Part shown: piece after piece, positions 1,788-34,269 of the stretch
Numbering within the stretch: position 1 is the first letter of the stretch
Layout of the letters: the number at the start of each line of letters is the position of its first letter
Source of the DNA: a virus
Length of the DNA stretch: 64,000 nt
Reading direction: 5' to 3' (one strand)
Virus record (IMG/VR): IMGVR_UViG_3300030737_000007
Coordinates: 1-64,000 of that record
The notes under the pieces: generated by a model
The model's input: the letters and a program-made list of their open reading frames with translations, nothing else
Database searches by the model: none
Told to the model about the DNA's origin: nothing
Translations under genes and position numbers: made by a program

Positions 1788-3157
1788 TAATTGCCCCTCG
1801 CCGACCACATGATGTAGATGGTGTTGGCCAGATTGGCCCCGCCACCGCCAACCAAAACGTTGGAGGCTGCGTGTGCTGTGAACCCTGTCGTGGCTATACT
1901 GTTATCCAGCACATTCACGCTGATGCTGTTGTTGCCCGAGCAAGCGCTTTGCGGGCATCCGTAAGCTGTCAGAATCGGAATGAGATTACTGGTGGTGGTA
2001 AACGGGAAGGGAAAGGTTACCGACTGGCTTGTTTGATTCGCTCCGGTAGGGATCGGACCCGCGCGGCCCCACTCCTCAATCGTCCCGTCTGCGCCAATTT
2101 CGTAGCATCCGTTTGCGTTACAGGTCCGCGAACTACCCGGTAAGCTGCAGTTCGAGCCGAGGGTGCAAGTCGTAGAGTTGTTGATCGTGAAGGAGGAATT
2201 CGCCAGAGACGAGTTCGGTATGGCAGAGGCCGTAACCGAAAGAATAGGCGCGGAAGTGGGGTTCGCCACGGACGGCGTAAGCCACGACGGCCATGAACCC
2301 GTGAGGAAGTCTGTGAGGGTTCCGGAACCTGTCGTGCAGACTCCATTGGTGGAGGTGCAGACAGGCGATCCTTGGATGTTCATAGGTACGCTAGCCGTGA
2401 TCACCACATCGGACATTGAGAGCGGGGTAACTCCGTCCGTGTTGTCGATGATGCTGAACAGCGACCCGGTGCCCGAGACCTGAAGGCTCCACGAGGTCGA
2501 ACCGGTATTGACGAGGTTCAGGCCCGTCTCAGAATGGCTGCTCTGGATAGTCTGGTCTTGGCCGAAGGTGTTCGCGTTGGATAGCAAGGGGAGGACCGAA
2601 CCGCTCGTTCCAATAGCCGTGGTGGCCGCCGCAGTAAACGCAACCCCGTTGGTCTTGAGGCAAGTGATCGCTCCACTCGCAACGAGCGTGCAATCCCCCG
2701 ATAGATTTTCGGGAGCGTACACAGATCCGGTCTGCCCCACGAGAATCTGACCAGCAGCAGGTGCCACGATGGTTCCAGTACCACCGTTCAAAGTTCCCAC
2801 CGGAAGGGCTAACCCAGCGTTACCGCAGATGTTGGCAACCGTGAGGGTACCGGAACTCGGGTAAGAGATGGTTTCCGTTACGCAGGTGTTGAGTGGCAGA
2901 TAGTAGTCGTAGTTACCTTGGTTATCGGTAGTCAGGATCGAACCCGGGATGGTCAGGGTCAGAAGAGGGTCGGAGTAAATTGTCGCGGCGATACCGGTTG
3001 CGGTGCTAGCGACGAAAATAGAGGATCCGGGTACGACTTGCGCTACAACTCCGGAGTTACCTCGCGCGATAATCTGATTGACGCGATGGAACCCGGCAGT
3101 CACTTGTGCGTGACACAAGGACGGGAGCAGCGCGAAAAGTAGGAGTAGCTTCTTCAT
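1787..3157 (-). CDS. Tail fibre-like protein with a signal-peptide-like N-terminus
   Basis: 456 aa, T/S/G-rich. C-terminal GCYEIGADGTIEEWG...VTFPFPF resembles the common fibre tip domain. N-terminus is MKKLLLLFALLPSLCHA-Q. Confidence 0.7.
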   Translation of the reverse strand: MKKLLLLFALLPSLCHAQVTAGFHRVNQIIARGNSGVVAQVVPGSSIFVASTATGIAATIYSDPLLTLTIPGSILTTDNQGNYDYYLPLNTCVTETISYPSSGTLTVANICGNAGLALPVGTLNGGTGTIVAPAAGQILVGQTGSVYAPENLSGDCTLVASGAITCLKTNGVAFTAAATTAIGTSGSVLPLLSNANTFGQDQTIQSSHSETGLNLVNTGSTSWSLQVSGTGSLFSIIDNTDGVTPLSMSDVVITASVPMNIQGSPVCTSTNGVCTTGSGTLTDFLTGSWPSWLTPSVANPTSAPILSVTASAIPNSSLANSSFTINNSTTCTLGSNCSLPGSSRTCNANGCYEIGADGTIEEWGRAGPIPTGANQTSQSVTFPFPFTTTSNLIPILTAYGCPQSACSGNNSISVNVLDNSIATTGFTAHAASNVLVGGGGANLANTIYIMWSARGN

Positions 3158-3429
3158 TGTTTTCCATTATCTGGACTGGTCGATTTGTCCACGCTCGCCG
3201 CGAGCTTGTTCGTTCCGTAGGGCATTAAACAAAACGTCCCCTGCCCCATAAGAATGGCGGCGGGGACCCAGAGGTCACTAATTTGTGGGTGCAGAACGCT
3301 CCAGTGCGCGAGCAGGAACCAGAGAGATGCGGTGTCCCAGCCCATGCAGAAGACAATACAGATGAGGGACGCAAACCGCCCGAAGCTGGCGTTTGAGGAG
3401 CTGCTGAGTACATCTCTAAAGAAACTCAT
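3154..3429 (-). CDS. Small membrane protein, holin-like
   Basis: 91 aa with two hydrophobic segments; overlaps both neighbours by 4 nt. Confidence 0.5.
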   Translation of the reverse strand: MSFFRDVLSSSSNASFGRFASLICIVFCMGWDTASLWFLLAHWSVLHPQISDLWVPAAILMGQGTFCLMPYGTNKLAASVDKSTSPDNGKQ

Positions 3430-4136
3430 CGTGTTCCCTTCTGGACCATCTCGGTCTGGCGGAGCGAGTTTAATTTATCTTCGATCCATAAATTTTTCTG
3501 AGTCTGAGAAAGATTTTCCGAGGAGTCCACAAGCTGCTGCAAGAAGAGCTGCATGGTCGTCATGTAGCGAGGGTCGTTGGTGTACTCGTAGCCTTTGGCG
3601 TCAAATCCAGAGTTGTAAATGAAACTCAAGTAATCCGGAATAGGCTCCCAGGTTTGGTCAACAGAGGTGAACAAGGAAGCAGAATTCTGGTACTCAACCA
3701 CGATGTTGTACACTTGGTCGGGCGCGGGAAAGATGCGGAAGGTGATATTGCCTTCGCCGTCGTCGAACTGCGCCGAGATGCGAGCAGGCTGGTTAGTCTG
3801 AGCGTCTGCCCCAAAGATCAACCCTACCTGGAGCTCGTGGGTAAGATAACCATTTACGGGTTCGTACGCGACGGCCTTCTCGATCCACCCAAAAGTAGGC
3901 AAGTTGACTACGTAATCTGTCTGTCCGATGATGGTTACAAACGTGGGGTCCGTGAAAGTAGCCGCGGTGCGATTCCACCTCCAGGCGAACGGAGGCGACA
4001 GGATGAGTTGCTTCACCCAGTCGGCGTTGGAAAACGCGGGATCGTTCGCTGTGTTCTTTTGAAACAACAGCGGCTGTAGGCGCAGAAACTGCGACGTACG
4101 ATTGATCGTCCGCTGTAACTCAATAGTGGAGGCCAC
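3426..4136 (-). CDS. Head-tail adaptor / tail tubular-like protein
   Basis: 236 aa; WRWNR, DYVVNLP, FRIFPAPDQVY and IPDYL motifs resemble phage adaptor proteins; lies in the structural block. Confidence 0.55.
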   Translation of the reverse strand: MASTIELQRTINRTSQFLRLQPLLFQKNTANDPAFSNADWVKQLILSPPFAWRWNRTAATFTDPTFVTIIGQTDYVVNLPTFGWIEKAVAYEPVNGYLTHELQVGLIFGADAQTNQPARISAQFDDGEGNITFRIFPAPDQVYNIVVEYQNSASLFTSVDQTWEPIPDYLSFIYNSGFDAKGYEYTNDPRYMTTMQLFLQQLVDSSENLSQTQKNLWIEDKLNSLRQTEMVQKGTR

Positions 4137-4137
4137 G

Positions 4138-4536
4138 TTACCTCGGAGGGATGATTGACTTGGGGAGGTTTTTTAGCAGGACCGCCGTCAGCTTTTGGGT
4201 CTGGTTCTCCAGCATGTTTTGGAAGAACGGGCGCGTCGTGTCGGAAAGGAAGGGTTCAGCGTGGTCGTGAAAAGGATCAACCAGGATGTGGCAAAGTTCG
4301 TGGGTGAGAATCAAGACCAAGTGGTCGATGTCACCCTTTTTGAAATCTTCCTCGCACATCTGGTACGTGGTGAGGTGCGCCTGCATATAGGTAGAGTCGA
4401 TACAGATGTCTGCGGCGCAACTACCTTTAGCGGCTGGGACATGTTCTATGGTGATGATCCACCCCGGAAGGTTGAGGTAATCAGCCATCCGCGTTACGAA
4501 GCTGGCGACCCAGCTCCCGTACGTCACCTTCTTCAT
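4138..4536 (-). CDS. Small HEXXH zinc metallopeptidase-like protein
   Basis: LTHELCHILVD motif, 132 aa. Confidence 0.55.
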   Translation of the reverse strand: MKKVTYGSWVASFVTRMADYLNLPGWIITIEHVPAAKGSCAADICIDSTYMQAHLTTYQMCEEDFKKGDIDHLVLILTHELCHILVDPFHDHAEPFLSDTTRPFFQNMLENQTQKLTAVLLKNLPKSIIPPR

Positions 4537-4550
4537 TTTGGCTCCGAGGA

Positions 4551-5138
4551 TTACTCGATGTCGTGGAGGTAGGACAGCTCGATCGCGGCCAGAGGATCCA
4601 TCACAGTACGGAAGCCCGATGCAGAATCTTTATTGAAGCTCTTCTTCTTGCGCCACTGGTAGAAGTCTGGGTCCGACTGCTTGAAGATTCGCTGGCAGAC
4701 AGTGCAGATACCGGTGGTCTGGCCTACGTCGCCGCGGTGCCAGATAATGGACGTGCGGCCCGCGATGTCTTTGGACTCGCTCAGCGGACTGCAACCGGCT
4801 ATGTGCTCGCAGTTGTCCTGGGCGAACTTGTTGTTGGCCTTGGTGCGCTTTTCCTGCTCGCGCTGCTGGTCCTTGAACTGCTTGTCGTTGGCTTCATTCG
4901 CCAGGTCGCGCGCAGATTTGAGGGCTTCTTTCGGTTCAGCCAGCTTGAGGATCGCATCGGTCTGAGCGGCGCTTGCGGCTGCGGCCTGCTTCTGAACCTC
5001 GATCAACTGCTGTTGCATACTGGCTACGAGCGTCAAAAGTTGCTCGGTAGACATTGCGGGCTGGACTGCTTCGACGGCCTTCGGGGTTTCGGGTGCTACA
5101 GATGCTGCGGAAGTTTCTTTGATGGTGGCATTCGCCAT
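4551..5138 (-). CDS. Hypothetical protein (coiled coil plus Cys/His cluster)
   Basis: 195 aa ORF in the operon; CEH...CTVC. Confidence 0.6.
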   Translation of the reverse strand: MANATIKETSAASVAPETPKAVEAVQPAMSTEQLLTLVASMQQQLIEVQKQAAAASAAQTDAILKLAEPKEALKSARDLANEANDKQFKDQQREQEKRTKANNKFAQDNCEHIAGCSPLSESKDIAGRTSIIWHRGDVGQTTGICTVCQRIFKQSDPDFYQWRKKKSFNKDSASGFRTVMDPLAAIELSYLHDIE

Positions 5139-5171
5139 AACGGGCTCCTAGTCCAATCCGGACTGACGGGG

Positions 5172-5846
5172 TTATATGATTTTGGTGCTGTTGCGGTGGT
5201 TATGAAGGTGCTTGTACCACAAAGAGCTTTCCCCGCCAGAGGGAGGACCAAACTCTTTGTTGCACTGCTGCTCGGTAAGGATGTTGTTTTCGATGAACCG
5301 GATTAGTACCGAGCGCCAACCCATTTCAGTGGTTCGGATCAGCACGTCGCGGGCCTCGTCGAACTCATACGAAGAGAACTCAGGCATCATGCCAAGGGTC
5401 ACGTAGCCTAGGTATTTGAAGGGATTGCCGCCCCATTCAGGCTTGTTGACGCCGTTCGTCACATACAACGCCAGATCAGTGACAATTCCACCCTGCGTGA
5501 CGTACAAACTCGGACAGATGTGATGGAGTTTCTGAAGGAACAGAGAAGCATCCATCGCCCGACCCCGACGATCTTTACGCATTTCTTCTTGATCAGGATG
5601 GCGCTGACGTTGGGTTCCGTGAGAGTTGAAGTTCATTTCCTTCAACCTGGATACATGCTCGGCGATACTGAGGCGGGGGGCTTCGAGGCACTTGAAACAC
5701 TGCGCGCCGTGGCCTGTCTTGCGAGAGGAATCTTTGGGGTAGAACTTGAAAGTCAACAGTCGCGCGCAAGACTGGCACTCGATTCCACGGATCTCGTTGT
5801 CTACGCCCGCCTCGTAGTCGATGATGTCAAACTCGTCTACGATCAT
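5172..5846 (-). CDS. Hypothetical protein with CxxC...CxxC zinc ribbon
   Basis: 224 aa; CQSC/CFKC; overlaps the upstream gene by 4 nt. Confidence 0.6.
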   Translation of the reverse strand: MIVDEFDIIDYEAGVDNEIRGIECQSCARLLTFKFYPKDSSRKTGHGAQCFKCLEAPRLSIAEHVSRLKEMNFNSHGTQRQRHPDQEEMRKDRRGRAMDASLFLQKLHHICPSLYVTQGGIVTDLALYVTNGVNKPEWGGNPFKYLGYVTLGMMPEFSSYEFDEARDVLIRTTEMGWRSVLIRFIENNILTEQQCNKEFGPPSGGESSLWYKHLHNHRNSTKII

Positions 5847-7922: not shown

Positions 7923-7997
7923 TGGAGCCAAGATTCAGACTTGAACTGAAAACCTAACCATTACGAGTGGTTTGCTCTACCGTTGAGCTATCTTGGC
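7923..7997 (-). tRNA. tRNA-Thr(CGT)
   Basis: GCCAAGA acceptor pairs with TCTTGGC; TAGCTCAACGGTAGAGC D arm; AACCA-CTCGTAA-TGGTT anticodon arm; GTTCAAGT T loop; encoded CCA. Confidence 0.92.
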
Positions 7998-10215: not shown

Positions 10216-10291
10216 TGGCTGGGGAACTTGGGGTCGAACCAAGAACCGTTCGGTTAACAGCCGAATGCACTGCCAATTGTGCTATTCCCCA
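10216..10291 (-). tRNA. tRNA-Asn(GTT)
   Basis: TGGGGAA/TTCCCCA acceptor; TTCGG-CTGTTAA-CCGAA anticodon arm; GGTTCGAC T loop; encoded CCA. Confidence 0.93.
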
Positions 10292-12676: not shown

Positions 12677-13372
12677 TTACTGCGGGGATGCTTCGCGCTG
12701 GCGGCGGTTCTTTTGGGCTTCGCTTAGCTTGGCACGGTGTTCGGGCGACAGTTGACGACCTAACTTAGCTTGCCTCATTTTCTCAAGAGTCTCGGGAGAG
12801 AATTCTCGACCGAGCATCCGTTGCCTAATCTTTTCGCACGTTTCTTCGGAGTGCGGGCCTAGCTTTACGCCGCGCGTCCGAGCGCCTATTTTCTCTTTCG
12901 TTTCCTCGGTGTGCGTTCTTCCGAAGAAAGGATTCTTTTCTCCGACCAGCAACCCCGTCAGCGTTTCACTAATCTTCTGCCTTGTTTCGGGAGCAACTGC
13001 TCGACCGTAAGAAGGACTATCTGCTCCCTTGCGAGGATTCAGCCGATTGGGGTTCAAGTCACCGTAGGAGAAGCCTTCTCCGCCGTGGGTGCTGTTGTAT
13101 CCAAACTTGCGATCAGAGGATCGTAATTCTTTGATCCATTTCCGTTCCGCGTCGTCCAAATCATCTACGTTGTCTACTACTTCAAGGGTAGACAGAACGA
13201 AAGCTCCGGGGCCGTACTTGCGAATAGCGTGGCTAAAGTAGATGTTTTTGCCTTCTTCGGCCAGCTTGACGTGGGAACGCCAGCGGACGTGAGGCTCTTG
13301 AACGGTCTTTCCTACGTAGACTTTTCCGTTCACAGTGTTCGTAATGCAATAGATTACTGCCATTTTTCTCAC
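12677..13372 (-). CDS. Free-standing GIY-YIG homing endonuclease with NUMOD3-like repeats
   Basis: VIYCITNTVNGKVYVGKT, RWRSH, GYN; repeated HTEETKEKI/HSEETCEKI motifs. Confidence 0.92.
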   Translation of the reverse strand: MRKMAVIYCITNTVNGKVYVGKTVQEPHVRWRSHVKLAEEGKNIYFSHAIRKYGPGAFVLSTLEVVDNVDDLDDAERKWIKELRSSDRKFGYNSTHGGEGFSYGDLNPNRLNPRKGADSPSYGRAVAPETRQKISETLTGLLVGEKNPFFGRTHTEETKEKIGARTRGVKLGPHSEETCEKIRQRMLGREFSPETLEKMRQAKLGRQLSPEHRAKLSEAQKNRRQREASPQ

Positions 13373-13510: not shown

Positions 13511-16399
13511 CTAGCTGGAGGAAGTCTGAGACTGCAACCGGCGTAGCGTCATGGTAGAACCAGGCGAATCTGTTACCTTTTCCATTATGTGGAAACGGGC
13601 AAGTCGTTTCTGTTCCGCTTGCCTCATACGGTTGTTATTCCCGTATGTCCAGACTATTGCATACCTTTGCGGGTCTTCTTCGCTTAGTCGTTCACGGTCC
13701 CGTGTGTAGGGTTCCGCCTCGTTGGCATCACAGCGTCCGAGTCAATCAGAAGAAGTTTTACCTGCGCCGATGATTTAACGCAGGGTGTTGGTATACCTTC
13801 ACGGCTGTTATCTGCTGTATTACCAGCAAGATGAGTCATTTCTGCTCACCTCTTATGGTTCCAATTCCCATAAGGTCGGACTATCGCATCACCCCGAGGG
13901 GTGTTCTATCGCTTAGTCTCTCACGGCCCCTTTCGGGTTCCGCCCTGTCAGCCATCTCAGCTTCCAAGTCAATCAGATAGAATTTTCTAACTACGGCTCT
14001 CACCGTAGCGACGCAAGTATGTCTACGTTGTAGCTGACCCACGAACTAAGCTACGTTTACCAACACAGTCGGAGGCTGGGTCTGCACACCACCGATTTGA
14101 CGCGCAGGATCCGAAACCGAACCCTGTTCTGGAGCAGACTGGATGAAGAGCTTCACGTTTGTTACTCACCGTTGCCGATGGGGCGGGTCATTTCTGCTCG
14201 CCTCTGTACGTCACCGCACAGGTCGGACTATGTCATCACCCTCTTGCGAGGGGCAAGGTATATAGTCTCTACACGTTCCCGGATGTTCTCGGGCTTCGCT
14301 CGGCGTTTTCTCCAAAGGAGACGTTCACCGAATTAGCCTTGTGTTCGAAAGCAATTACTCGCTTAAGCTACCATTTTCAAATAGTTCTTCGATCCGTCTT
14401 CAGGATTCTTGCCGAGGAACACGGAGAAAATCGCGTCATCGCCAAAAATGTAAGTGTTGTAGAATGTGTTACCTGAGATGGTAACAGTAGGTGCCGTGGT
14501 CGTCTGCTTGAACTTAACCCCGCCGAACTTGATGACATCTTCGTTCTTCGGGAGCTCGAACAGCATAGCGCGCATGGAATCGTCACGCTTGATAATGTCG
14601 GTCAGACCATTAAAGCTCGTGTCGTTCAATACGTCGCGCACGACGTTGGGGTGGATGATTCCGCCGAACGAGTTGTCCATGAGAGGACGAGCGTTGACGG
14701 ATGCCAGCGACTGGGCCGCAGAGCGAATGTTGTTCGCAGTGAGGTAGGAGCCGTTGGCGAGCTGGATGTTCACCAGGGAATCGACCGCAACAGCCGAGTC
14801 AGCGGTAAGCTGGACAAGGGAGTTGAGGGTGAGGGCCAGGCGATAGTTCAGTTCGTTTGCAAGGTTCTGCAACAGACCTGGGTCATCGATGGCCACGTCG
14901 AGTGCCAAGTCCGAGGAATTGATAAAATCAGCGTACTGGCCGATTGTAGCAACGATCTTCGAGCTGGACTCGCTGATGGGGGAGCCCACGGTCCCTTCCG
15001 CCGCCTGGTTCAAATTGGCTGCGAGGAGAGCGTAGGTGTAGACAGTTGTGTTTTGGAGATGCCCTTTCGGGTCACCGGGCTTTCGCCCCTCTTATGTCAC
15101 CATAAGGTCGCTCTGTACGTCGCCGCACAGCTCGGACTCTATCTTCATTTCCAGATAATGGAAATGTCCGGCGTATTAGCCTCTACGGGTTCTGGTTGCC
15201 CAGTCTTCCCTCGGTATTGTCTCAAAGAGAGTTCCACCGATATAGCCGGATTTTACTTCAGCACATTAATACTGAATCTGGTTTCCCTGCCGAAGAGGCA
15301 GAGGGCGCTGCTTGGTCATGCTCAAAAAGGGCGTTTGGGCCTTGAGATTGGGCACGGCCTCGCGTTCATCATTGTGTTTAGGCCGCCAGCATCTCTGATG
15401 GGGCGCTCTGCATATCGCTATGCAGTTCAGACTGTATCTTCAGTTTCTTCAAAGCAATTAGGCGAAGATAAAGTTCTTCCCGTTTGGGCGGGCAATGAAC
15501 CTTGTGGCCTAATCCAACGTATTCCATTCCAGCTAGGGCCTCGTCTCTCTTGACTACGAGATACGGAAGCGTGTGGAGGAGAAACTGCTCAATGTGGAGT
15601 TTGTTGAACAAAGACCACTGGAAACAATTCCTTTTTCCTTTACTTCGAACGTCGCCGCCGTACAGTTTCTTGCAAGAATCAAGCACGGTCTTGTCGTTGT
15701 TCGAGATGGTCACGATCAGATGGTAGCAGATAACACCCCGAGAGAGGGTTTTGTTCACTCGGATGCAACCTTCGCCATCAAAGAAACCAGCCATGTAGGA
15801 GGGTTCTGCTTTGAGGTAACTGCTGTTCGTCTCAGTCGTTACGGACCCGTGTTGCTTCATTTCCTTGAGTTTTTGGAGGTATCCATGTTTCTGGTCCTCG
15901 GACAGATTTTCTCTGTTCTCAATAAACTCAATCAGAACGTCAGCTTGTTCCCTTTTGTATCTCAAGTAGGGCAGAATAGCTTTAAGGAAAGCAACGGTAG
16001 AAGGGAAGGATTGCAGGTACCAAATGTACCAATCCTCGCCTGCCTTGTTGTTTACATTGCGGGTAAAGCTGCCCCCGAAATGTAGCACAGACCACTGCAT
16101 CAAAGCTCTTGATTTATTGCTCAAGTATACTTTGGGTTCGAAGTAGGTCTTGCTTCCTCGTTTGTGGGTGGCGATCCGGATGCAACCTTCTGCATCGAAA
16201 ATCCCAGCCATGTAGCTTTTGGTTTTCTCTTTCACGGTTTCCTCGGTATTGTCTATATCCTTATGCTACCACACCTAGTAGTAAAAGTCAACAGAGTTTC
16301 ACCGATTTAGAACAGTTTTACTTCACCAAGAATTTAGTGAATGGCCACCAAGTTCGGTAGCGCGCCAGATGTAACGATTGATGCAGGAGAGTAACTCAT
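13511..16399 (-). CDS. Major capsid protein (N4-gp56-like), 7 exons, 327 aa after splicing
   Basis: Exons 16399-16336, 15369-15271, 15042-14381, 14153-14088, 14041-14025, 13799-13778 and 13564-13511 total 984 nt and give one open frame: MSYSPASIVTSGALPNLVAIHYEREAVPNLKAQTPF...IQFYTYALLAAN...GSKNYKLFIQSAPEQGSVSDPARQIGGWVSYNVRYTNTLRPGSTMTLRRLQSQTSSS*. Follows portal and scaffold. Confidence 0.88.
13565..13777 (-). mobile_element. Group I intron (capsid intron 6), 213 nt, ORF-less
   Basis: Exon CCTGCGT pairs with IGS GCGCAGG (U.G at the splice site); P3 CTTCTT/AAGAAG; P7 GACTA/TAGTC; terminal G. Confidence 0.9.
13800..14024 (-). mobile_element. Group I intron (capsid intron 5), 225 nt, ORF-less
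   Basis: P1 CAACGT/GCGTCG; P10 ATACTT/AGGTAT; P3 TTCTATC/GATAGAA; P7 GACTA/TAGTC; terminal G. Confidence 0.9.
14042..14087 (-). mobile_element. 46-nt coreless group I-like mini-intron (capsid intron 4)
   Basis: Removal restores ...QIGG|WVSYN...; follows U and ends in G; IGS GCCTCCGA pairs with exon TCGGTGGT; GACCCA pairs with 3' exon TGGGTC; contains an in-frame TAG. Confidence 0.75.
14154..14380 (-). mobile_element. Group I intron (capsid intron 3), 227 nt, ORF-less
   Basis: 5' site after AACTAT; P3 CAAGG/CCTTG; AATTCGGTGAA and AACGCCGAG (P4); GTAGAGACTA and GACATAGTCC (P7); terminal G. Confidence 0.9.
15043..15270 (-). mobile_element. Group I intron (capsid intron 2), 228 nt, ORF-less
   Basis: P1 TTCAGT/GCTGAA; P3 TCCGGC/GCCGGA; TATCGGTGGA and AATACCGAG; AAGATAGAGTCC; terminal G. 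Confidence 0.9.
15378..16235 (-). CDS. Double-motif LAGLIDADG homing endonuclease (intron-encoded)
   Basis: SYMAGIFDAEGCI and SYMAGFFDGEGCI motifs, each followed by LPYL..K. Confidence 0.93.
   Translation of the reverse strand: MKEKTKSYMAGIFDAEGCIRIATHKRGSKTYFEPKVYLSNKSRALMQWSVLHFGGSFTRNVNNKAGEDWYIWYLQSFPSTVAFLKAILPYLRYKREQADVLIEFIENRENLSEDQKHGYLQKLKEMKQHGSVTTETNSSYLKAEPSYMAGFFDGEGCIRVNKTLSRGVICYHLIVTISNNDKTVLDSCKKLYGGDVRSKGKRNCFQWSLFNKLHIEQFLLHTLPYLVVKRDEALAGMEYVGLGHKVHCPPKREELYLRLIALKKLKIQSELHSDMQSAPSEMLAA
16263..16291 (-). promoter_or_regulatory. Promoter inside intron 1, upstream of the endonuclease
   Basis: TTGACT-17 nt-TAGCAT with TG extension, about 30 nt before the GTG start. Confidence 0.6.
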
Positions 16400-18489: not shown

Positions 18490-20559
18490 CTAAACGTCTG
18501 AGCCAAATCCGGTTTGGGCGGAGGGTTCTCCTGTTAATTCAAGGGGTTCCACAGATTTCTTAAAGCCTTCCCTTAATACATCCCGGGCTGCTCTTGCGAT
18601 ATTGCTGCTGTCGTCCCTTTGCTCAGCCGCGGCATCTTTCTGCGCCTGAAGCTGTGCTTGGGCCTGCGCCTTTTGTTGAATCTGCCCACCCTGCGATTGC
18701 TGTTGTTGCCGCTGAAGATCTTGCGGGGTCATGTCCACGATCACGTCGTTCAGGTTCTTGAAGTCGGCGGCCTCAAACCACATGTGGACCACCTCCATCA
18801 CGTTGACCTTCTTGCCTTCGATCGAGAGCGAGGAGATGACTTCGGGGTTGGACAGGAACTGAGATAGCATCGGGAGCGCTTGGGCCATGTTGCGGCGCGT
18901 CTGCATCTTGGACCCAGCGAGGATGGAGAACTTCACTCGGGCGTTCAGGATGTCGATCACGTCGCCGCCGGACTGCACGTACTCGTGCTTCAGCTCTTCC
19001 GACATGATGAAGTTCAACTGCGACTCGGGTAGCATCTCCCGGTTCATTTGCTGCATGTCGTAGAGCAGCGGCACGATGACCTGGTCGGCCAGATTGTCGA
19101 TGAACTCCGAGATGCCCGATGACGCGCCCTGCGCAAGAGCCTGAGCTCCGGCAGAACTGCGCGCGAGATTGGAGTGGCCCGAGGAACCTGCGTTGCCGCC
19201 CATGATCGGGTTGTTGCCCGAGACGGTGTCGGCGCGGCCCTGCGACATCGCCATAAGTTCCCCGGCTTCGGGGATGGCGGGCAGGCGCTGAAGCGGCTCA
19301 AGGTCGCCCTTGGTATCCACCTCGATGATCTTGCCGGGGCAGATGCGGATTGACTGAGTTGGGATGCTCTTGCCGCGGACGCGGACGAGCGGGGTGTTCA
19401 GGTTCAACGAGGCGTTGTCCAGCAGCAGGTTGGTGATGCCGGTCATCAGGCGCTGCTCGGAGCCGATCGTGCGCCCGAGGCCGAGCGACCAGTACCCGCC
19501 GGGGATATTCCACCAGCCGATAGAGTAGAACGGGATCTTGCCGTAGACGTTCTTGCCGTTGTAGATGACCAGTTTCTTCTGGAGCACCACGATGTACGTG
19601 CCGTTGTCCCACCGCTCCAGTACCTCTAGGGGTTTCTGGAAGGGGTCGGCGGTCGTGGTATCCCAGCGGGCTTCTGCACGGGCTTCCCAGAGCGGGTTGC
19701 GCCCGCCGATTTCCCCGATAGCCGGATCAGCCGTCTCTGCGGGCGGCATGAACAGCATCATGAGGTTTTCGCGGGACGGGATATCGTATCCCTCGCGGTC
19801 CCGCAGCTTGTCGAGGTCTTCCCACGTCATGTAGCGGCGGCGGACGACGTACTTGGCCTTGCGGATGTCCGGAACACGTAGCCCGGGGTCTACCAGGACT
19901 TCGCGGAGGTCTACGATGTGCTCGAACGTGGGCCGGTCGATTACTTCTTCGATGATCTCTTCTTCGAGTTCACCATCGGAGATGCGGGTGTCAGGCGCGC
20001 CGGGGATTCCGGACGGAATTACGACGGAGGGGTTCTTCCGCTTGACTATTTTGCGCTCTTGGGTGAACTTTTCCCAGCCCCATTGGAACATGGAGGTGCC
20101 AAACAGCAGGCAATTGAAGATTCCGAGCTTCAGTTCGGCCCGGAAATCCATGTCGTCGAGCTGGTAAGCAAGCAAAGCGGAGGTCGCGCGCGCCAGTTGG
20201 GCGGTCGTTCCGGGCCGTTCCTGCACCATAAACGGCGGGTTTTCGTAAAATAACCCGGACATTACCTGCGGAACTATGCCATTTACAGCCGTTGCGACCG
20301 TGAAAAAGCTGATCGAAGCGGCCTCAGATTGGGTTCCGGGCCAGTATCTGGGCTGAAAAGGGGACTGGTAGAGGGTCTGTGCGGCTACCCAGCCGAGGCA
20401 AAATTGCCTACTCAACTCAGCTTTCTCAGCGCGTTCCGCGTCTTGAAGACATAATTTGAGGGCTGGATTTTCTTCCCACACGCCCTCGGACAAAAAGCCC
20501 CGTGCTTCGGCAGGTGTTACCTGCTCATAAACGTTATATGGGGCTTCCGGCAAGTTCAT
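18490..20559 (-). CDS. Portal protein (P22/podovirus-like)
   Basis: 689 aa; LLFGTS..QWGW, AKYVVRR, YGKIPF, LLDNASL and Q-rich barrel-like C-terminus; lies between terminase and scaffold. Confidence 0.85.
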   Translation of the reverse strand: MNLPEAPYNVYEQVTPAEARGFLSEGVWEENPALKLCLQDAERAEKAELSRQFCLGWVAAQTLYQSPFQPRYWPGTQSEAASISFFTVATAVNGIVPQVMSGLFYENPPFMVQERPGTTAQLARATSALLAYQLDDMDFRAELKLGIFNCLLFGTSMFQWGWEKFTQERKIVKRKNPSVVIPSGIPGAPDTRISDGELEEEIIEEVIDRPTFEHIVDLREVLVDPGLRVPDIRKAKYVVRRRYMTWEDLDKLRDREGYDIPSRENLMMLFMPPAETADPAIGEIGGRNPLWEARAEARWDTTTADPFQKPLEVLERWDNGTYIVVLQKKLVIYNGKNVYGKIPFYSIGWWNIPGGYWSLGLGRTIGSEQRLMTGITNLLLDNASLNLNTPLVRVRGKSIPTQSIRICPGKIIEVDTKGDLEPLQRLPAIPEAGELMAMSQGRADTVSGNNPIMGGNAGSSGHSNLARSSAGAQALAQGASSGISEFIDNLADQVIVPLLYDMQQMNREMLPESQLNFIMSEELKHEYVQSGGDVIDILNARVKFSILAGSKMQTRRNMAQALPMLSQFLSNPEVISSLSIEGKKVNVMEVVHMWFEAADFKNLNDVIVDMTPQDLQRQQQQSQGGQIQQKAQAQAQLQAQKDAAAEQRDDSSNIARAARDVLREGFKKSVEPLELTGEPSAQTGFGSDV

Positions 20560-21481
20560 TTTTGTTCCTCGGGGCGAATTTGGACGGTCTTAGAGCCGTT
20601 CCAACGCTCTTTAATCGGTTGCGAACCGTAGCAGATGTGCAGCCGAGAGCCTGTCCAACTTCCTTCGTGGACATTCCGGACTGATAAAGTTCGAGCATCC
20701 TGTTGGTGTTTAGGCGCTCTTGAGGTAGATTATTGGAGGGTCGGAGAGCGATGGAGAGGCCGTCTAGCCTTCCTTTGACGCACCCCATTGAGCATCCCAG
20801 AGTATCCGCAACTTCCTGAAGCGTAAGTCCGCTTTGGTAAAGGCGCACCAAGCGGACGCTATCTACGTCCGAGCGGTATAATGGGTTTGATTCGCCGCCA
20901 ATAGACCGTTTGTTGACCAAACATTCGGGGCGAATTTTATACCCGTGCCTGTGCCGACCCTGCCCGACTAGAACACCAGCCTTCTTCATGCGCAGGGTTA
21001 CCAACTCGGTCGAGCAATTGAACTTGGCGGCGATCTCTTTGCGCGTCAGCATCTCATCAACGTAGAGATGTCGAATCTCTTCGGTCGAAATATCAGCCCG
21101 ATAGTGGCTATGTCGAGTAGGATCCGCGGCCAGCGTAGCTTTGAGAGTCTTGGCCCGAGCCTTCCGCATGTGCGGACTGATGCCGGTCCACCCGTCTCCT
21201 CCCCAAGTGCAGACATACCCGTGCTTGGAGATGTGCGCGCCGAAGAGGAGAATCCAGATGCGTTCCTGGTAGTCAGCCTCGGCTTTCGTCTCAACGGTGA
21301 GAAACGGCTCGCAGGTAAAGTTCTCGACGCCGTATTTCCGCATAGCCTTGTAGAGGGGCTGTTGTTCGCCCTTCCGTAGGTCTTTGAGGTGGTTTCTCCA
21401 CCGATGCGGGACGCCGCATTTGGTCTGGCCAACGTAGAGTTTGTCGTTGACGTGGTTCTGAATCAGATATATGGTGTACAT
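20534..21481 (-). CDS. Free-standing GIY-YIG endonuclease with three HTH repeats
   Basis: TIYLIQNHVNDKLYVGQT; repeats LYQSG.(T/S)..EV...LGC. Confidence 0.9.
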   Translation of the reverse strand: MYTIYLIQNHVNDKLYVGQTKCGVPHRWRNHLKDLRKGEQQPLYKAMRKYGVENFTCEPFLTVETKAEADYQERIWILLFGAHISKHGYVCTWGGDGWTGISPHMRKARAKTLKATLAADPTRHSHYRADISTEEIRHLYVDEMLTRKEIAAKFNCSTELVTLRMKKAGVLVGQGRHRHGYKIRPECLVNKRSIGGESNPLYRSDVDSVRLVRLYQSGLTLQEVADTLGCSMGCVKGRLDGLSIALRPSNNLPQERLNTNRMLELYQSGMSTKEVGQALGCTSATVRNRLKSVGTALRPSKFAPRNKNELAGSPI

Positions 21482-22246: not shown

Positions 22247-23418
22247 ATGATGAACGAAGACGATTTTAAGAAGACGTACATCGCCACATTTCTCGCGGCG
22301 TACGCTGCTAAACAATACGACTTCAACTGCCAGACGGGGTGGGAGAAAGATTTTCCGCCAATCGAAGATTCTCAGACTCTCGCCCAGGATGCGTGGAATA
22401 AGCTACAGGAGCGATCATGAATATTAGATGCCGTCTTTTCGGTTGCTGGATAAGCGACGAGCCTGAAGACCACGGGTGTTGTGGCCGATGCGGGATTTGG
22501 GTATATGACGCCGACTTCCGCCAAGCTGGGGTACCTTTGGTCGAATGGTGGCGATCAGTTCGCTCGAAATGGAAGCGCCGTTCAAACTATCGGCACCATC
22601 TCTGTGGTGTTTGTAACAAGCCAATGTACCTGACCGAAGAGAGCTGTTGCTCGTCCGAGTGCTATGACAAATGGTTCCCGTTCTAGGAGATTCCAGATAA
22701 TGGAAACAGAGAACAGCAAGAACGAACGATGTTGGCGTTGCGGCGGGAGCGGATTCCGTTCGTTTACGGAAACTATGAGCAGCCCGGGCCATCCGTGTCC
22801 AGCCTGTAACAAGAAAACTCTCATGGAACGGTTGGCTGAGATTGCCCCCAAGCGCGAGGAAAAGGTATGGGGCGAACAGAAACTAACAGCGTTTCGCTAC
22901 GAACCCATTCTTCTTCACGCCCAACTCTTCGCCAACTGGGTGGCGGAAGACTTACCCAAGAACCAAGGAGAGTTACGAGACTTACTATGGGTTTTCGGCA
23001 CGCAATTATCGGGAGATATGGAGAAGCGAATGAACCATGCAATGAACTTGGCGAATGATATGGTGAATCTCCGAGTTCCTGCGATAATCTTTGAGGGAGA
23101 AAAGAAATGAAGGACGAACGAGATTTTGATTTCCGCATTGACATGCGAACGGCTAGAAAGTTGAAGGCTGCGCTGCACAAAGGCACGTTCGATAAGCTAA
23201 CAAAGGCTGAGGCGAACGCCCTCGAAGATTTAGTATGCGAACTGCTAATGCAAGTCGAATAGGAGACGGAAATGAAGAAACTACGCAGCAAGTGCTGTCA
23301 ACGGAGCATGTGGGACGATGAACGGTACTGTCCACGCTGCGGTTGGGAATGTTACGTAGAATACATTCCAGATTCCTTAGCCACGGACAAAACTTCAGCC
23401 AAAAATCCCACTCCCTAA
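22247..23418 (+). other. Antisense island of five small plus-strand genes (22247-22420, 22417-22686, 22700-23110, 23107-23262, 23272-23418)
   Basis: Tightly coupled ORFs, several Cys-rich; preceded by TGTGGTAGAAT; inserted between terminase and portal. Confidence 0.6.
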
Positions 23419-25449
23419 GATGTTGTCCATCCCGCTGGGGGCCGAATACGCGAAGTCCTCTTGCGGGGAGAAATCATCCGGAGGTGGTTGGTAGGGGTCA
23501 AACACTACCGTGTTTCCCTCGGCGTCCGTCCGAAGCAGAATGCCAGAGCGTGGGTCAAAAGAACCCTCTTCGAAAACTTCGTTCCACCCCATGCGGTCGA
23601 TGAAGCTGAACATCTCGGTGTTGTTCTCGATGATAGCCTGCGTTGCGCGCGGGGCGTACCGGGTTTGGTAGCCTAAATTGTCCGGTATGTCATCGTGGTG
23701 ATGGTCATACATGCACTTCTCGAACTCGTTGTAGACAATCTCGATCTTGTTGTTCGGGGCCGGGTTGGCCTCCATGCAGTAGTTCGCGAACTTTAGGCGG
23801 CCTTCGGTGATCCACGGGTGGAGCGACCCCATGCGTAACTTCTTGGCGTCCTTCTGCTGCTCGGGGGTGAACCAGTCGATCCCGGCGCAGATGCCGATGA
23901 CGTACGGGTCTTGTGTCCGGAACGCCGCGGACATGATGGAGTCCTTGAGGTAGGTCGCGCCCTGAGCATTCTCGATCGCTACTACGAACGGGTGCTCTTC
24001 CTGGATCATCCGGATAATGGAAGCCACGATCTGGTGGGGCAGCAGCCGATCGCGGAAGATCTTGCGGACGTAGCCGGTGGTCTGCTTCTGGCCGTTGCGC
24101 CGCCCGTCGGGGTCTACCTGCTCTTCTTCGCCCCAGACAATCGAGGTGCCGACTGTGAAGTCGCTGCCCTTCTTCTGGCTGGAGGCCAAGTCCCATACCT
24201 GGGAGCAAGGCCCGACGCGGGGCAGGCTGGTGAACGGAACGGTGGCCTTGAGCAGCATGGCCCGGTCGAAACCGATCTGCGAGGCATTGCGGGGGTTCTG
24301 GTTGCGCTGGCCCTCGAAGGACTTCTCATCCTTGGCGAGATCCACCATGCACCAGTTGAAGCTCATTTTGTGGGGCATCAGGAGGATGCACCCGTCTGGG
24401 CCCGCTTCGTGGTACGTGACCGGCTTGCCTTCGCGCTCCAGAGCCTCTGCTACTTCGGGCTTGATCTGGATGGCCTTGCCGATAAGAATGTTCGAATTCG
24501 TGGACTTGTTTTCCATGAACTCCCAGCCAACACCCTTGGTAATCTGGATGTCGCCCAGGTTCTTGGAGAGCAGGACGCCGTAGTGGTCCTCGTCGGCGTA
24601 CCGGGTGCCGATGTAGTCGATGTAGTAGCCGCCCAACGCCAGCAGCTTCTCGGCCAGGAACAGCGCGCGCGAAATCTTCTCGCACAGCAGGGCGGTCTCA
24701 GAGTTGGTGTCGGACACCGCGTCGTCGGCCTTGATCAGTTCGTAACGCCAGCCAGCCTTGTTCTTGCCTACCGAGGAGGCGTAGACCGTGGGTTCCTTGC
24801 GGCCCGTCTTCTTGGCGGCGTACACCGGGCAGGTGAAGGTGTTCATCGCCCCGGCTTTGCCTTCTTCTACGCAGAACTCCGGCCAGAAGAGATTCATCAG
24901 CGACGGCTCTTCTTTGATGTAGAAGTGGCCCTTGATCTCTCCGACGAAGCCTTCTGCCAGGCTCTTCTCGGCGGTCAGGTAGAGGATGCGGATGGCGGGG
25001 AAGCAGAGGATCCACTGAACAGTGTCGATGTGGTCGAATGTGCTTTTTGCGCCGCCGCGGGGCCATAGCAACAACCGAGTCTTGACTTCAGACTGTTGGT
25101 TGAGGGGCTTGGACGGGTCTTTCTGGGTAAAGAGTTTGGGGAAGGCCCCGTAGTACTCTTCGTCGAAGATGTTTTCCTCGAAGGGGAGGAGGCCATTGTC
25201 TGAGATCGGGTTCGTGCCCCAGGTGAAGTACCGGGCCATCCACATCAAGTCGGTCTGGCAGCGACGGCGAACTTCTATACCAAGCCGCGACGCCCGGATG
25301 TGCTCAATCCCAAGGGAGGCTACGTTGATCAGATCTTCCCGCACTGAGAGCAGGTAGGTGTAGAGTTCTTCGTTCGGGATTTTGCTGTCGCCGCCGTGCT
25401 CTTGGCATAGGAGGTCGAAGCGATCTTGATTGTCGGGGACTTCGGGCAT
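23395..25449 (-). CDS. terL: Terminase large subunit
   Basis: LLWPRGGAKST (Walker A), LIKADD (Walker B), IGTRY, VWDLA and HDDIPD nuclease motifs. Confidence 0.9.
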   Translation of the reverse strand: MPEVPDNQDRFDLLCQEHGGDSKIPNEELYTYLLSVREDLINVASLGIEHIRASRLGIEVRRRCQTDLMWMARYFTWGTNPISDNGLLPFEENIFDEEYYGAFPKLFTQKDPSKPLNQQSEVKTRLLLWPRGGAKSTFDHIDTVQWILCFPAIRILYLTAEKSLAEGFVGEIKGHFYIKEEPSLMNLFWPEFCVEEGKAGAMNTFTCPVYAAKKTGRKEPTVYASSVGKNKAGWRYELIKADDAVSDTNSETALLCEKISRALFLAEKLLALGGYYIDYIGTRYADEDHYGVLLSKNLGDIQITKGVGWEFMENKSTNSNILIGKAIQIKPEVAEALEREGKPVTYHEAGPDGCILLMPHKMSFNWCMVDLAKDEKSFEGQRNQNPRNASQIGFDRAMLLKATVPFTSLPRVGPCSQVWDLASSQKKGSDFTVGTSIVWGEEEQVDPDGRRNGQKQTTGYVRKIFRDRLLPHQIVASIIRMIQEEHPFVVAIENAQGATYLKDSIMSAAFRTQDPYVIGICAGIDWFTPEQQKDAKKLRMGSLHPWITEGRLKFANYCMEANPAPNNKIEIVYNEFEKCMYDHHHDDIPDNLGYQTRYAPRATQAIIENNTEMFSFIDRMGWNEVFEEGSFDPRSGILLRTDAEGNTVVFDPYQPPPDDFSPQEDFAYSAPSGMDNILGSGIFG

Positions 25450-34202: not shown

Positions 34203-34269
34203 GCTCCCCTACAACCTGGCCGCCAAGTGGCGGGGAGCGGGCAACGGGTTTATCCCGGCTAATAGGTTG
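34203..34269 (+). ncRNA. HDV-like self-cleaving ribozyme
   Basis: P1 GCTCCCC/GGGGAGC, P2 CAACCTG/TAGGTTG, P3 GCC/GGC, P1.1 CC/GG, GCAA, P4 CGGG/CCCG, J4/2 GCTAA (catalytic C34259). L3 starts with G rather than the usual U. Confidence 0.82.

What the first reader, a model, noticed from the sequence alone, without database searches (positions are those of the whole stretch)
13511..16399. Major capsid gene fragmented into seven exons by six intervening sequences
Seen: all six junctions follow the U-before/G-last rule, have an internal guide pairing, and together restore a single 327-aa frame. Two exons are only 17 and 22 nt, and two-thirds of the locus is intron. Established: phage group I introns usually occur one to three per gene and mostly in DNA-metabolism genes. 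Inference: the most abundant virion protein depends on six splicing events, which may act as a timing or GTP/Mg-sensing gate. Terminase, portal and PolA are intron-free, so the concentration is specific.
Basis: partly seen in the sequence, partly recalled or inferred. Interest (0 to 1): 0.8.

Follow-up and report, generated by a model that had tools for sequence, protein, structure and literature searches.

The report
Capsid gene split by six introns
This soil phage's only major capsid gene is cut into seven pieces by five self-splicing (group I) introns and one 46-base "mini-intron" with no catalytic part. Related phages carry anywhere from none to about ten such inserts, so the gene is a hot-spot for mobile introns rather than a built-in switch.

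Summary
On the minus strand, 16399-13511, seven exons (64, 99, 662, 66, 17, 22 and 54 nt) join into a 327-aa major capsid protein. It is 303/327 identical, without gaps, to an uninterrupted homologue. Every junction has U before the cut and G as the last insert base.

Five inserts are group I introns of one family. IVS2 and IVS3 pass Rfam's cut-off. IVS5 and IVS6 do not, but their core, including the P3/P7 pseudoknot, is supported by covariation. IVS1 carries a LAGLIDADG homing endonuclease.

The sixth insert (14087-14042, 46 nt) is too short to hold a ribozyme. It keeps a contiguous P10+P1 guide and the terminal G. It most likely borrows a full-size intron's core, probably IVS5, 17 nt downstream; this is inferred, not shown.

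In 71 related loci the gene holds 0 to about 10 inserts at 37 or more sites. Sixteen distinct mini-introns occur at 7 sites. The intron family occurs nowhere else in this 92-kb genome.

The pattern looks like accumulation of selfish mobile elements. No RNA data could be obtained. The scan has noted coreless mini-introns before in other phage genomes.

The parts
16336..16399 (-). Exon 1 (64 nt; Met1 to first base of Tyr22)
   Evidence: tblastn with P0003 residues 1-21, 95% identity; joined frame
15370..16335 (-). IVS1: 966-nt group I intron carrying a LAGLIDADG homing endonuclease ORF (16235-15378, 285 aa)
   Evidence: Pfam PF00961 E 1.2e-11. Rfam RF00028 gives 27.1 bits, E 6e-4, below the cut-off. 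The family profile hits the 5' part (16340-16232, E 2e-6) and the 3' part (15451-15373, E 1e-7). The ends are 80-82% identical to ORF-less introns at the same site in L010, L021, L049 and L072. P1 is TTCACT/GGTGAA.
15271..15369 (-). Exon 2 (99 nt)
   Evidence: Read directly and joined in frame; colinear with intron-less relatives
15043..15270 (-). IVS2: 228-nt ORF-less group I intron
   Evidence: Rfam RF00028 53 bits (cut-off 50); family profile E 7e-29; P1 is TTCAGT/GCTGAA with U.G
14381..15042 (-). Exon 3 (662 nt, the bulk of the capsid protein)
   Evidence: tblastn with P0003 residues 56-275, 90% identity, E 4e-136; 252 homologues at E<=1e-3
14154..14380 (-). IVS3: 227-nt ORF-less group I intron
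   Evidence: Rfam RF00028 50.9 bits; family profile E 1e-39
14088..14153 (-). Exon 4 (66 nt)
   Evidence: tblastn with P0003 residues 274-297
14042..14087 (-). IVS4: 46-nt coreless mini-intron. It shifts the frame by +1 and holds an in-frame TAG. Its guide GACCCA.GCCUCCGA forms P10 with the start of exon 5 (UGGGUC) and P1 with the end of exon 4 (UCGGUGGU, U.G at the cut). The last base is G.
   Evidence: 12 of 13 guide pairs; 28 of 2000 shuffles reach this. Ten distinct relatives at the same site (40-59 nt): P1+P10 95.5% paired, covariation 0.40 against 0.14 in shuffles (0/500), slid controls 38-63%.
14025..14041 (-). Exon 5 (17 nt: Trp-Val-Ser-Tyr-Asn plus two bases of Val)
   Evidence: tblastn finds WVSYNV; joined frame; identical residues in intron-less relatives
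13800..14024 (-). IVS5: 225-nt ORF-less group I intron, and the candidate helper ribozyme for IVS4
   Evidence: No Rfam hit. Family profile E 5e-30. Row 1 of alignment A1: P3, P4, P6, P7 (pseudoknot), P8 and P9 are 98.1% paired, and 28 of 33 pairs show compensatory changes. It is 85% identical to introns at site 879 of L033, L039 and L060.
13778..13799 (-). Exon 6 (22 nt: last base of Val, then Arg-Tyr-Thr-Asn-Thr-Leu-Arg)
   Evidence: tblastn finds RYTNTLR at 100% identity
13565..13777 (-). IVS6: 213-nt ORF-less group I intron
   Evidence: No Rfam hit. Family profile E 2e-31. Row 2 of A1, same covariation support. P1 is CCUGCGU/GCGCAGG, 7 bp. It is 83-86% identical to site-930 introns of L019, L040 and L075.
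13511..13564 (-). Exon 7 (51 nt plus TAG stop)
   Evidence: tblastn with P0003 residues 311-327, 94% identity
12677..13372 (-). Free-standing GIY-YIG/NUMOD3 homing-endonuclease gene, 138 nt downstream of the capsid stop
   Evidence: Pfam PF01541 E 1e-11 and PF07460 E 6e-17; homologues sit about 140-170 nt downstream of the capsid gene in about 22 related loci

Best explanation
The phage's single major capsid gene (minus strand, 16399-13511) has been invaded six times by mobile group I-type elements of one family.

Five are complete ribozymes: IVS1 (with a LAGLIDADG homing endonuclease), IVS2, IVS3, IVS5 and IVS6. They should splice themselves out by the standard two-step guanosine-initiated pathway, guided by P1 helices with a U.G pair at each 5' splice site.

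The sixth, IVS4 (46 nt), is an internal-deletion derivative. It has kept only the substrate parts of a group I intron: a contiguous P10+P1 internal guide and the terminal G. It is most probably excised by the same chemistry using the catalytic core of a full-size intron on the same transcript. The likeliest helper is IVS5, which starts 17 nt downstream.

All six excisions are needed to produce the 327-aa capsid protein.

The load of inserts results from homing and transposition of selfish introns within a highly conserved late gene. It is not a designed regulatory gate.

Shown: exon structure, intron family membership, core and guide covariation, presence/absence polymorphism, purifying selection on all exons. 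Inferred: that splicing actually occurs, and the helper mechanism for IVS4 (my odds about 0.55 for a borrowed core).
For: 1. The joined exons give 327 aa, 303/327 identical to P0003 without gaps. Every junction is colinear with intron-less genes L006, L007 and L014.
2. IVS2 and IVS3 pass the Rfam RF00028 cut-off, as do 16 related introns. 97 of 98 distinct 185-245-nt inserts form one similarity cluster. A profile built only from relatives hits IVS3, IVS6, IVS5, IVS2 (E 1e-39 to 7e-29) and both ends of IVS1, and nothing else in the 91.9-kb genome.
3. The group I core of the IVS5/IVS6 subfamily is 98.1% paired. 28 of 33 pairs carry compensatory changes, including in the P3/P7 pseudoknot. Slid controls pair at 35-45%.
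4. Selection: against intron-less L006 there are 148 synonymous and 25 non-synonymous codon differences. Downstream of IVS4 the counts are 13 and 1. This is the only capsid gene copy in the genome.
5. Mini-introns: 16 distinct inserts of 32-59 nt at 7 sites each carry a contiguous [P10 6 nt][P1 7 nt] guide matching their own flanks (mean 12.2/13). Against flanks of other sites the mean is 7.7 (Mann-Whitney p 9e-11). There is formal covariation at the window's own site.
6. The minis share their first ~18 and last ~10 nt with full-size introns at the same sites.
7. Minis never occur in a gene that lacks a full-size intron (26/58 against 0/14, p 8e-4). They lie 16-52 nt upstream of a full-size intron more often than chance allows (combined p 3e-4).
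8. Mobility: LAGLIDADG ORFs sit in large introns at many sites, and there is a free-standing GIY-YIG gene downstream. The same intron lineage is found at different sites.
Against: - There is no RNA evidence.
- The window's own IVS4 guide is only moderately significant taken alone (28/2000 shuffles). Its third helix with exon 5 (GUAGCU/AGCUAC) is not significant alone.
- The co-occurrence and proximity statistics ignore shared ancestry. They could also reflect co-conversion of linked elements during homing.
- Minis at site 119/120 have their nearest full-size intron 152 nt away. In L073 none is seen before the contig ends.
- No natural case of one group I core splicing a separate coreless intron is known to me or was found in the searched papers.
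- The genome record is an 85%-complete metagenomic contig, so viability is not proven.
Confidence: 0.75

Rival explanations
1. IVS4 and the other mini-introns are autonomous minimal ribozymes. They splice themselves, perhaps with folding help from flanking exon RNA, as claimed for the 67-nt PaSSU intron of Phialophora rDNA. In that case all six inserts are self-splicing.
For: Harris & Rogers (PMC3160393) describe 56-81-nt fungal introns with P1, P7, P10 and an intron/3'-exon pairing ('PM'). They report in vitro splicing of PaSSU when about 300 nt of exon is included. The phage minis share P1 and P10 and a PM-like helix of 7-9 bp at sites 89, 96, 120, 555 and 930.
Against: The phage minis are smaller (32-59 nt). 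After the 13-nt guide, only about 20-30 nt remain. By eye I saw no P7-like G-binding helix. They always coexist with a full-size intron of the family and tend to sit just upstream of one, which an autonomous element would not need.
Confidence: 0.15
2. IVS4 is not removed from the RNA. Ribosomes hop over it, as they do over the 50-nt coding gap of T4 gene 60.
For: The size (46 nt) and a hairpin involving the last codons before the gap resemble gene 60. Gene 60's gap is also part of a mobile cassette (bioRxiv 10.1101/2022.08.31.505936, listed). In L018 and L042 a stop codon directly follows the Gly codon.
Against: - The take-off codon GGU has no matching landing codon next to the resume point. 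The last triplet of the gap is UCG.
- No stop codon follows take-off in the window (GUG does).
- In the site-892 relatives the insert splits the conserved Trp codon (U|GG). Only exact excision restores it.
- U before, G last and a covarying P10+P1 guide are splice-site features, not bypass features.
Confidence: 0.03
3. IVS4 is a dead remnant and the gene is a pseudogene on a defective or mis-assembled genome.
For: The record is a metagenomic contig, 85% complete. A core deletion would normally be lethal.
Against: - The exons after IVS4 are under strong purifying selection in the correct frame (13 synonymous against 1 non-synonymous difference versus L006).
- The same kind of insert recurs at this site in 10 distinct sequences from independent assemblies, with compensatory changes in P1 and P10, and at 6 other sites.
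- No second capsid gene is present.
Confidence: 0.05
4. One reading: the six splicing events are selected as a timing or GTP/Mg-sensing gate on capsid production.
For: Group I splicing needs guanosine and Mg2+ (established knowledge). Requiring six events would make the yield steeply dependent on splicing efficiency. The introns are confined to the capsid gene in this genome.
Against: Intron number and position are highly variable among close relatives: 0 to about 10 inserts, 37 or more sites, and each window site occupied in only 8-17 of 71 loci. Fourteen related loci have none. Homing endonucleases are abundant. No conserved arrangement suggests selection for regulation.
Confidence: 0.1

Closest known systems
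[quoted passage not shown]
   Same: Same chemistry signature (U.G in P1, terminal G, P3-P9 core with P3/P7 pseudoknot). ORF-less ~200-nt forms occur beside forms that carry a homing endonuclease. Presence/absence varies between related phages (PMC11878797; PMC12880540).
   Different: Here there are six inserts in a 984-nt structural gene, up to about ten in relatives, and at least 37 sites in one gene family. The papers I read report two or three introns per phage gene, mostly in DNA-metabolism or terminase genes. One insert here has no core. IVS5 and IVS6 belong to a subfamily with a reduced P4-P5 region that the Rfam model does not score.
Small 'degenerate' group I introns of fungal nuclear SSU rDNA (Phialophora PaSSU 67 nt, Arthonia, Porpidia; 56-81 nt; Harris & Rogers 2011, PMC3160393)
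   Same: [quoted passage not shown] They are thought to derive from larger introns by deletion. Splicing depends on RNA context outside the intron.
   Different: - The phage minis are shorter (32-59 nt).
- They lie in a protein-coding phage gene, at seven or more different sites.
- They keep a terminal G (PaSSU uses U).
- No P7 is evident.
- They always accompany full-size introns of the same family, usually 16-52 nt downstream. This suggests a borrowed core rather than a minimal autonomous ribozyme.
T4 gene 60 translational bypass element (50-nt coding gap)
   Same: A ~50-nt non-coding insert in an essential phage gene, associated with homing-endonuclease mobility, with a hairpin at its 5' edge.
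   Different: There are no matched take-off and landing codons, and no stop after take-off in the window. Relatives split a codon. The covarying P10+P1 guide, U before and G last all point to RNA splicing.
Naturally fragmented, trans-spliced group I introns of organelles, and engineered trans-acting group I ribozymes (e.g. Azoarcus, PMC3895272; the organelle cases are from my own knowledge)
   Same: They show that a group I core and its substrate helices can reside on separate RNA segments and still react.
   Different: In those cases one intron is split into complementary halves. Here a complete intron would also have to serve a second, coreless intron that carries its own guide.

Membership tests
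Group I self-splicing intron (RF00028) | 5' exon ends in U, paired as U.G with an internal guide sequence (P1) | tested here: met
   All six 5' exons end in T. A guide G lies opposite that U at intron nt 9-12: P1 is 4-7 consecutive bp for IVS1, 2, 3, 5 and 6 and 7 of 8 pairs for IVS4.
Group I self-splicing intron (RF00028) | The last intron nucleotide is G (omega-G) | tested here: met
   All six inserts end in G in the only register that restores the protein.
Group I self-splicing intron (RF00028) | Conserved catalytic core P3-P9 with the P3/P7 pseudoknot | tested here: met
   This row covers IVS1, 2, 3, 5 and 6. IVS2 scores 53 bits and IVS3 50.9 bits against a cut-off of 50. For IVS5 and IVS6, covariation on A1 gives 98.1% paired and 28/33 compensatory pairs. 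IVS1 scores 27 bits in Rfam, and profile hits cover both halves around the ORF.
Group I self-splicing intron (RF00028) | Catalytic core present, tested for IVS4 specifically | tested here: not met
   IVS4 is 46 nt in total. About 27 nt remain after the 5-nt leader and the 14-nt guide. Neither Rfam nor the family profile hits it. It is therefore not filed as a self-splicing intron.
Group I self-splicing intron (RF00028) | Guanosine-dependent self-splicing of the transcript | not testable with these tools
   This needs in vitro transcription or RNA-seq.
Mobile intron with LAGLIDADG homing endonuclease | An intron-encoded ORF with LAGLIDADG domains | tested here: met
   ORF 16235-15378 matches PF00961 at E 1.2e-11 and PF14528 at E 4e-7. 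It is 79-80% identical to intron ORFs at the same site in L013 and L016. Cleavage activity was not tested.
T4 gene 60-type translational bypass | Matched take-off and landing codons, with a stop codon after take-off | tested here: not met
   The take-off codon is GGU and the triplet before the resume point is UCG. The next codon after take-off is GUG, not a stop. Relatives split the Trp codon.
Small degenerate group I introns (PaSSU type) | P1, P10 and an intron/3'-exon pairing (PM) retained; P7 present | tested here: inconclusive
   P1 and P10 are met. A PM-like helix is 6-8 bp in the window and not significant alone; it is 7-9 bp at five other sites (p 0.01-0.05 each). I looked for P7 only by eye and did not see one.
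N4-gp56 family major capsid protein (TIGR04387) | Score above the curated cut-off of the equivalog model | tested here: not met
   The uninterrupted homologue P0003 scores 39.9 bits against a cut-off of 60 (E 3e-10). It matches PHROG 1357 'major head protein' at E 1e-15. Exon 3's product is 42% identical to the stretch annotated as the major head protein of Tunturiibacter phage Tunturi_3. It is a capsid protein related to, but not a curated member of, the N4 family.

The most novel reading that the evidence does not exclude
These would be 'satellite' introns. A family of 32-59-nt coreless group I derivatives keeps only the P10+P1 guide, a 3'-exon clamp and the terminal G. They would be spliced by the ribozyme core of a neighbouring full-size intron on the same transcript, so one ribozyme serves two introns. 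This would be a second tier of genetic parasitism on self-splicing introns, letting essential phage genes tolerate inserts that have no catalyst of their own.
Probability: 0.5. Interest if true: 0.9.

Novelty: new variant of a known kind. Interest (0 to 1): 0.8.

Why it matters
Three points matter.

1. **Intron density.** Six inserts in a 984-nt essential structural gene, and up to about ten in relatives at 37 or more sites, is far beyond the two or three per gene reported for phages in the papers I read. It resembles the intron loads of fungal mitochondrial cox1. It shows that a highly conserved, highly expressed capsid gene can act as a sink for mobile introns in soil phages, probably of Acidobacteriota.

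2. **Coreless mini-introns.** If they are spliced by a neighbour's ribozyme, they would be a natural case of a group I core acting on a separate substrate domain. That bears on how ribozymes recognise helices in trans. It also bears on how introns degenerate without killing their host gene, and on gene annotation. Gene callers currently split these capsid genes into fragments: many database 'proteins' of 180-290 aa are probably such pieces, which I inferred from their lengths and did not check individually.

3. **An experimental system.** The family offers dozens of natural covarying variants with which to test the minimal requirements of group I splice-site selection.

Tried and rejected
No RNA evidence was obtained.
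- A homologue search with 'longer' lengths found nothing, because capsid homologues are about 327 aa. The 'near' search worked.
- Rfam in its permissive mode did not detect IVS5, IVS6 or IVS4. I replaced it with a family profile and a covariation test.
- RNAalifold on all 97 mid-size introns gave a poor consensus. I therefore defined the core by hand on a 37-sequence subfamily alignment and tested it.
- An exact 35-nt spliced-junction probe (E4-E5-E6) found nothing in viral contigs. I did not scan metagenome contigs, because a hit could not be told apart from an intron-less DNA allele.
- The gene-60-type bypass was considered and rejected (no matched codons; split codon in relatives).
- An archaeal bulge-helix-bulge intron was considered only in thought and dropped. 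The relatives' hosts are bacteria and the U/G plus guide features fit group I.
- The third helix (IVS tail with the 3' exon) is not significant for site 891/892 sequences taken singly.
- A specific pairing between IVS4 and IVS5 was looked for by eye only. One candidate is CUGUGUUG with CAACGU|AG, which overlaps the IVS5 5' splice site. It is not conserved in L008, so I make no claim.
- PDB sequence search with P0003 gave no hit.
- DP alignments of low-scoring or truncated loci (L025, L054, L056, L059, L060, L065/66, L079-83) give spurious short gaps. They were left out of the mini-intron counts.
Full report
**What is there**

The flagged stretch lies on the minus strand. ORF listing shows only a 216-aa frame (15013-14363) with capsid-like sequence, flanked by short broken frames and a 285-aa LAGLIDADG ORF. 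The window is part of a 91,894-nt IMG/VR virus record judged 85% complete.

The 216-aa piece has 252 database homologues at E<=1e-3. Many are 326-330 aa and some sources name them 'N4-gp56 family major capsid protein'. The closest isolate is Tunturiibacter (Acidobacteriota) phage Tunturi_3: exon 3's product is 42% identical to the stretch annotated as its major head protein.

I mapped the uninterrupted 327-aa homologue P0003 back on the window and read the sequence. This gives seven exons: 16399-16336, 15369-15271, 15042-14381, 14153-14088, 14041-14025, 13799-13778 and 13564-13511. Joined, they make 984 nt, which is 327 aa plus a stop. The product is 303/327 identical to P0003 with no gap.

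- The two micro-exons are 17 and 22 nt.
- 66% of the locus is insert.
- Every 5' exon ends in U and every insert ends in G.

P0003 matches PHROG 1357 'major head protein' (E 1e-15). It matches TIGR04387 at E 3e-10, below that model's cut-off. No second capsid gene exists in the record.

**Are the inserts group I introns?**

IVS2 (15270-15043) and IVS3 (14380-14154) pass Rfam RF00028's gathering score. IVS1 scores 27 bits. IVS5, IVS6 and IVS4 score nothing.

I fetched 79 related IMG/VR loci and aligned the window's spliced CDS to each with a spliced dynamic-programming alignment. 97 of 98 distinct 185-245-nt inserts form a single similarity cluster that includes IVS2, 3, 5 and 6. Sixteen of the relatives' introns pass Rfam's cut-off.

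A profile HMM built only from relatives' introns was searched against the whole genome. It hits IVS3 (1e-39), IVS6 (2e-31), IVS5 (5e-30), IVS2 (7e-29) and the two ends of IVS1 on either side of its ORF (1e-7, 2e-6). It hits nothing else.

On a 37-sequence alignment of the IVS5/IVS6 subfamily I wrote down P3, P4, P6/6a, P7 (bulged, pseudoknotted with P3), P8 and P9 and counted pairs:
- 98.1% of cells are paired.
- 28 of 33 pairs carry compensatory changes.
- Slid controls pair at only 35-45%.

So five inserts are bona fide group I introns. IVS1 is the ORF-bearing form of the site-64 intron. Its ends are 80-82% identical to ORF-less introns at that site, and its ORF is a LAGLIDADG endonuclease.

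**The sixth insert**

IVS4 (14087-14042) is 46 nt, shifts the frame by +1 and contains an in-frame TAG. It cannot hold a ribozyme core. Yet it has the substrate half of a group I intron:
- a contiguous guide GACCCA.GCCUCCGA, whose 3' part pairs with the end of exon 4 (UCGGUGGU, U.G at the cut);
- the 5' part of that guide pairs perfectly with the first six bases of exon 5 (UGGGUC), the canonical P10/P1 arrangement;
- a terminal G.

Relatives show that this is a class of element, not an accident. Sixteen distinct inserts of 32-59 nt occur at seven sites (CDS positions 89, 96, 120, 555, 891, 892, 930). Each has such a guide matching its own flanks at 10-13 of 13 positions, which shuffles rarely reach. 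Their guides score a mean of 12.2 on their own flanks against 7.7 on flanks of other sites (p 9e-11).

For the ten distinct sequences at the window's own site, P1+P10 are 95.5% paired. The pair next to the splice site shows four pair types (U.G, A-U, G-C, C-G). Covariation is 0.40 against 0.14 in shuffles (0/500).

A further helix forms between the insert's 3' part and the 3' exon at about +7 to +17. It is 7-9 bp at five sites, and weak at site 891/892.

The minis share their first ~18 and last ~10 nt with full-size introns at the same sites. The clearest cases are L069 against L064 at 554/555, L055 against L024 at 95/96, and L052 against L055 at 118-120. They are therefore internal-deletion derivatives.

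**Is the gene alive?**

Against the intron-less L006 allele the window's exons differ at 148 synonymous but only 25 non-synonymous codons. In the 23 codons downstream of IVS4 the counts are 13 and 1. All six joined junctions read the same amino acids as the uninterrupted genes. The exons after the frame-breaking 46-nt insert are thus under selection in the spliced frame. This argues that IVS4 is removed exactly.

**How IVS4 is probably removed**

Ribosomal bypass of the gene 60 type does not fit. There is no matching landing codon and no stop after take-off. In the site-892 relatives the insert splits the conserved Trp codon.

The features point to group I chemistry, so a catalytic core is needed. 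The evidence on where that core comes from:
- No free-standing core of this family exists elsewhere in the genome.
- Minis never occur in a gene without a full-size intron (26/58 against 0/14 loci, p 8e-4).
- A full-size intron lies downstream in all 25 cases with data, at 16-52 nt for five of six sites (combined p 3e-4).
- In the window, exon 5 is fully engaged. Bases 1-6 form IVS4's P10, bases 7-12 can pair with the IVS4 tail, and bases 13-17 form IVS5's P1. This places IVS4's splice sites next to the IVS5 core.

I therefore favour excision by a borrowed core, most likely IVS5 (about 0.55). The statistics ignore phylogeny and could also reflect co-conversion.

The main rival is autonomy, as claimed for the 56-81-nt fungal rDNA introns. 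These keep P1, P7, P10 and an intron/3'-exon pairing, and they need long exon context to splice in vitro (PMC3160393).

**Why so many, and why here**

Across 71 well-aligned loci there are 184 distinct inserts. Of the 160 that are 120 nt or longer, 143 match the family profile, at 37 sites after merging neighbours. Loci hold from 0 (14 loci) to about 9-10 inserts (L049, L077). The window's six sites are occupied in only 8-17 of 71 relatives.

The same intron lineage sits at different sites. IVS5 is 85% identical to site-879 introns, and IVS3 is 80% identical to a site-915 intron. This implies transposition within the gene.

Large introns at many sites encode LAGLIDADG enzymes. A free-standing GIY-YIG/NUMOD3 endonuclease gene follows the capsid gene here (12677-13372) and in about 22 relatives.

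Portal (18490-20559), large terminase (23395-25449), DNA polymerase (42870-45005) and primase-helicase (58832-60751) are uninterrupted. The concentration in the capsid gene is real. The variability among close relatives argues for selfish accumulation, not for a conserved timing or GTP/Mg gate.

**Comparison with what is known**

The papers I could read report at most two or three introns per phage gene:
- Bastillevirinae polymerase and terminase genes (PMC11878797).
- Twort orf142, as cited there.
- Jug phages, which average 18.5 introns per genome, with terL in two or three pieces (PMC12880540).

I found no paper describing coreless group I inserts in phages. The fungal small introns are the nearest precedent.

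The scan's own notes show that coreless mini-introns were flagged and followed up in several other phage genomes. Those notes agree with my independent result but are not independent evidence.

**Limits**

No RNA data could be obtained. Splicing of all six inserts, and the helper mechanism in particular, remain inferences from sequence, covariation and selection.

Noticed in passing
window 34203-34271 (+): Rfam HDV-F-prausnitzii-type HDV-like ribozyme, 45 bits against a cut-off of 44. Other first-reader notes on this genome describe a hammerhead and a second HDV-like fold nearby.
   Followed up: no
window 20534-21481 (-): A second free-standing homing-endonuclease-like gene (PHROG GIY-YIG/HNH families, E 5e-21) next to the portal gene. 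With the LAGLIDADG and GIY-YIG genes at the capsid locus, the structural module holds at least three endonuclease genes.
   Followed up: partly
window 7926-7997 (-) and 10219-10291 (-): Two tRNA genes (Rfam 67 and 65 bits) downstream of the structural genes.
   Followed up: no
L049 (IMGVR_UViG_3300032893_000735) 2059-5685; L077 1394-6405: Relatives whose capsid gene carries 9-10 inserts (8 full-size plus a mini-intron). The spliced translations are still open and about 90% identical to the window's protein.
   Followed up: partly
L050/L052 site 119/120; L061 site 89; L055 site 96; L069 site 555; L046 site 930: Mini-introns at six other sites of the same gene. Each has its own P10+P1 guide and a 7-9-bp helix to the 3' exon. 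At site 119/120 the nearest full-size intron is 152 nt away, which makes it the hardest case for a cis-helper model.
   Followed up: partly
L070 6962-7037 (+); L033 6928-6964 (+): Rfam hits to CyVA-1 RNA (54.6 bits) and abiF RNA (37.8 bits) downstream of the capsid gene in two related phages.
   Followed up: no
homologue list (e.g. P0001, P0004, P0012, P0018, P0062, P0075): Many database 'proteins' of 180-290 aa that are 87-95% identical to exon 3 are probably gene-caller fragments of intron-split capsid genes. This is inferred from their lengths only. Annotation pipelines appear to mis-call this gene family systematically.
   Followed up: no
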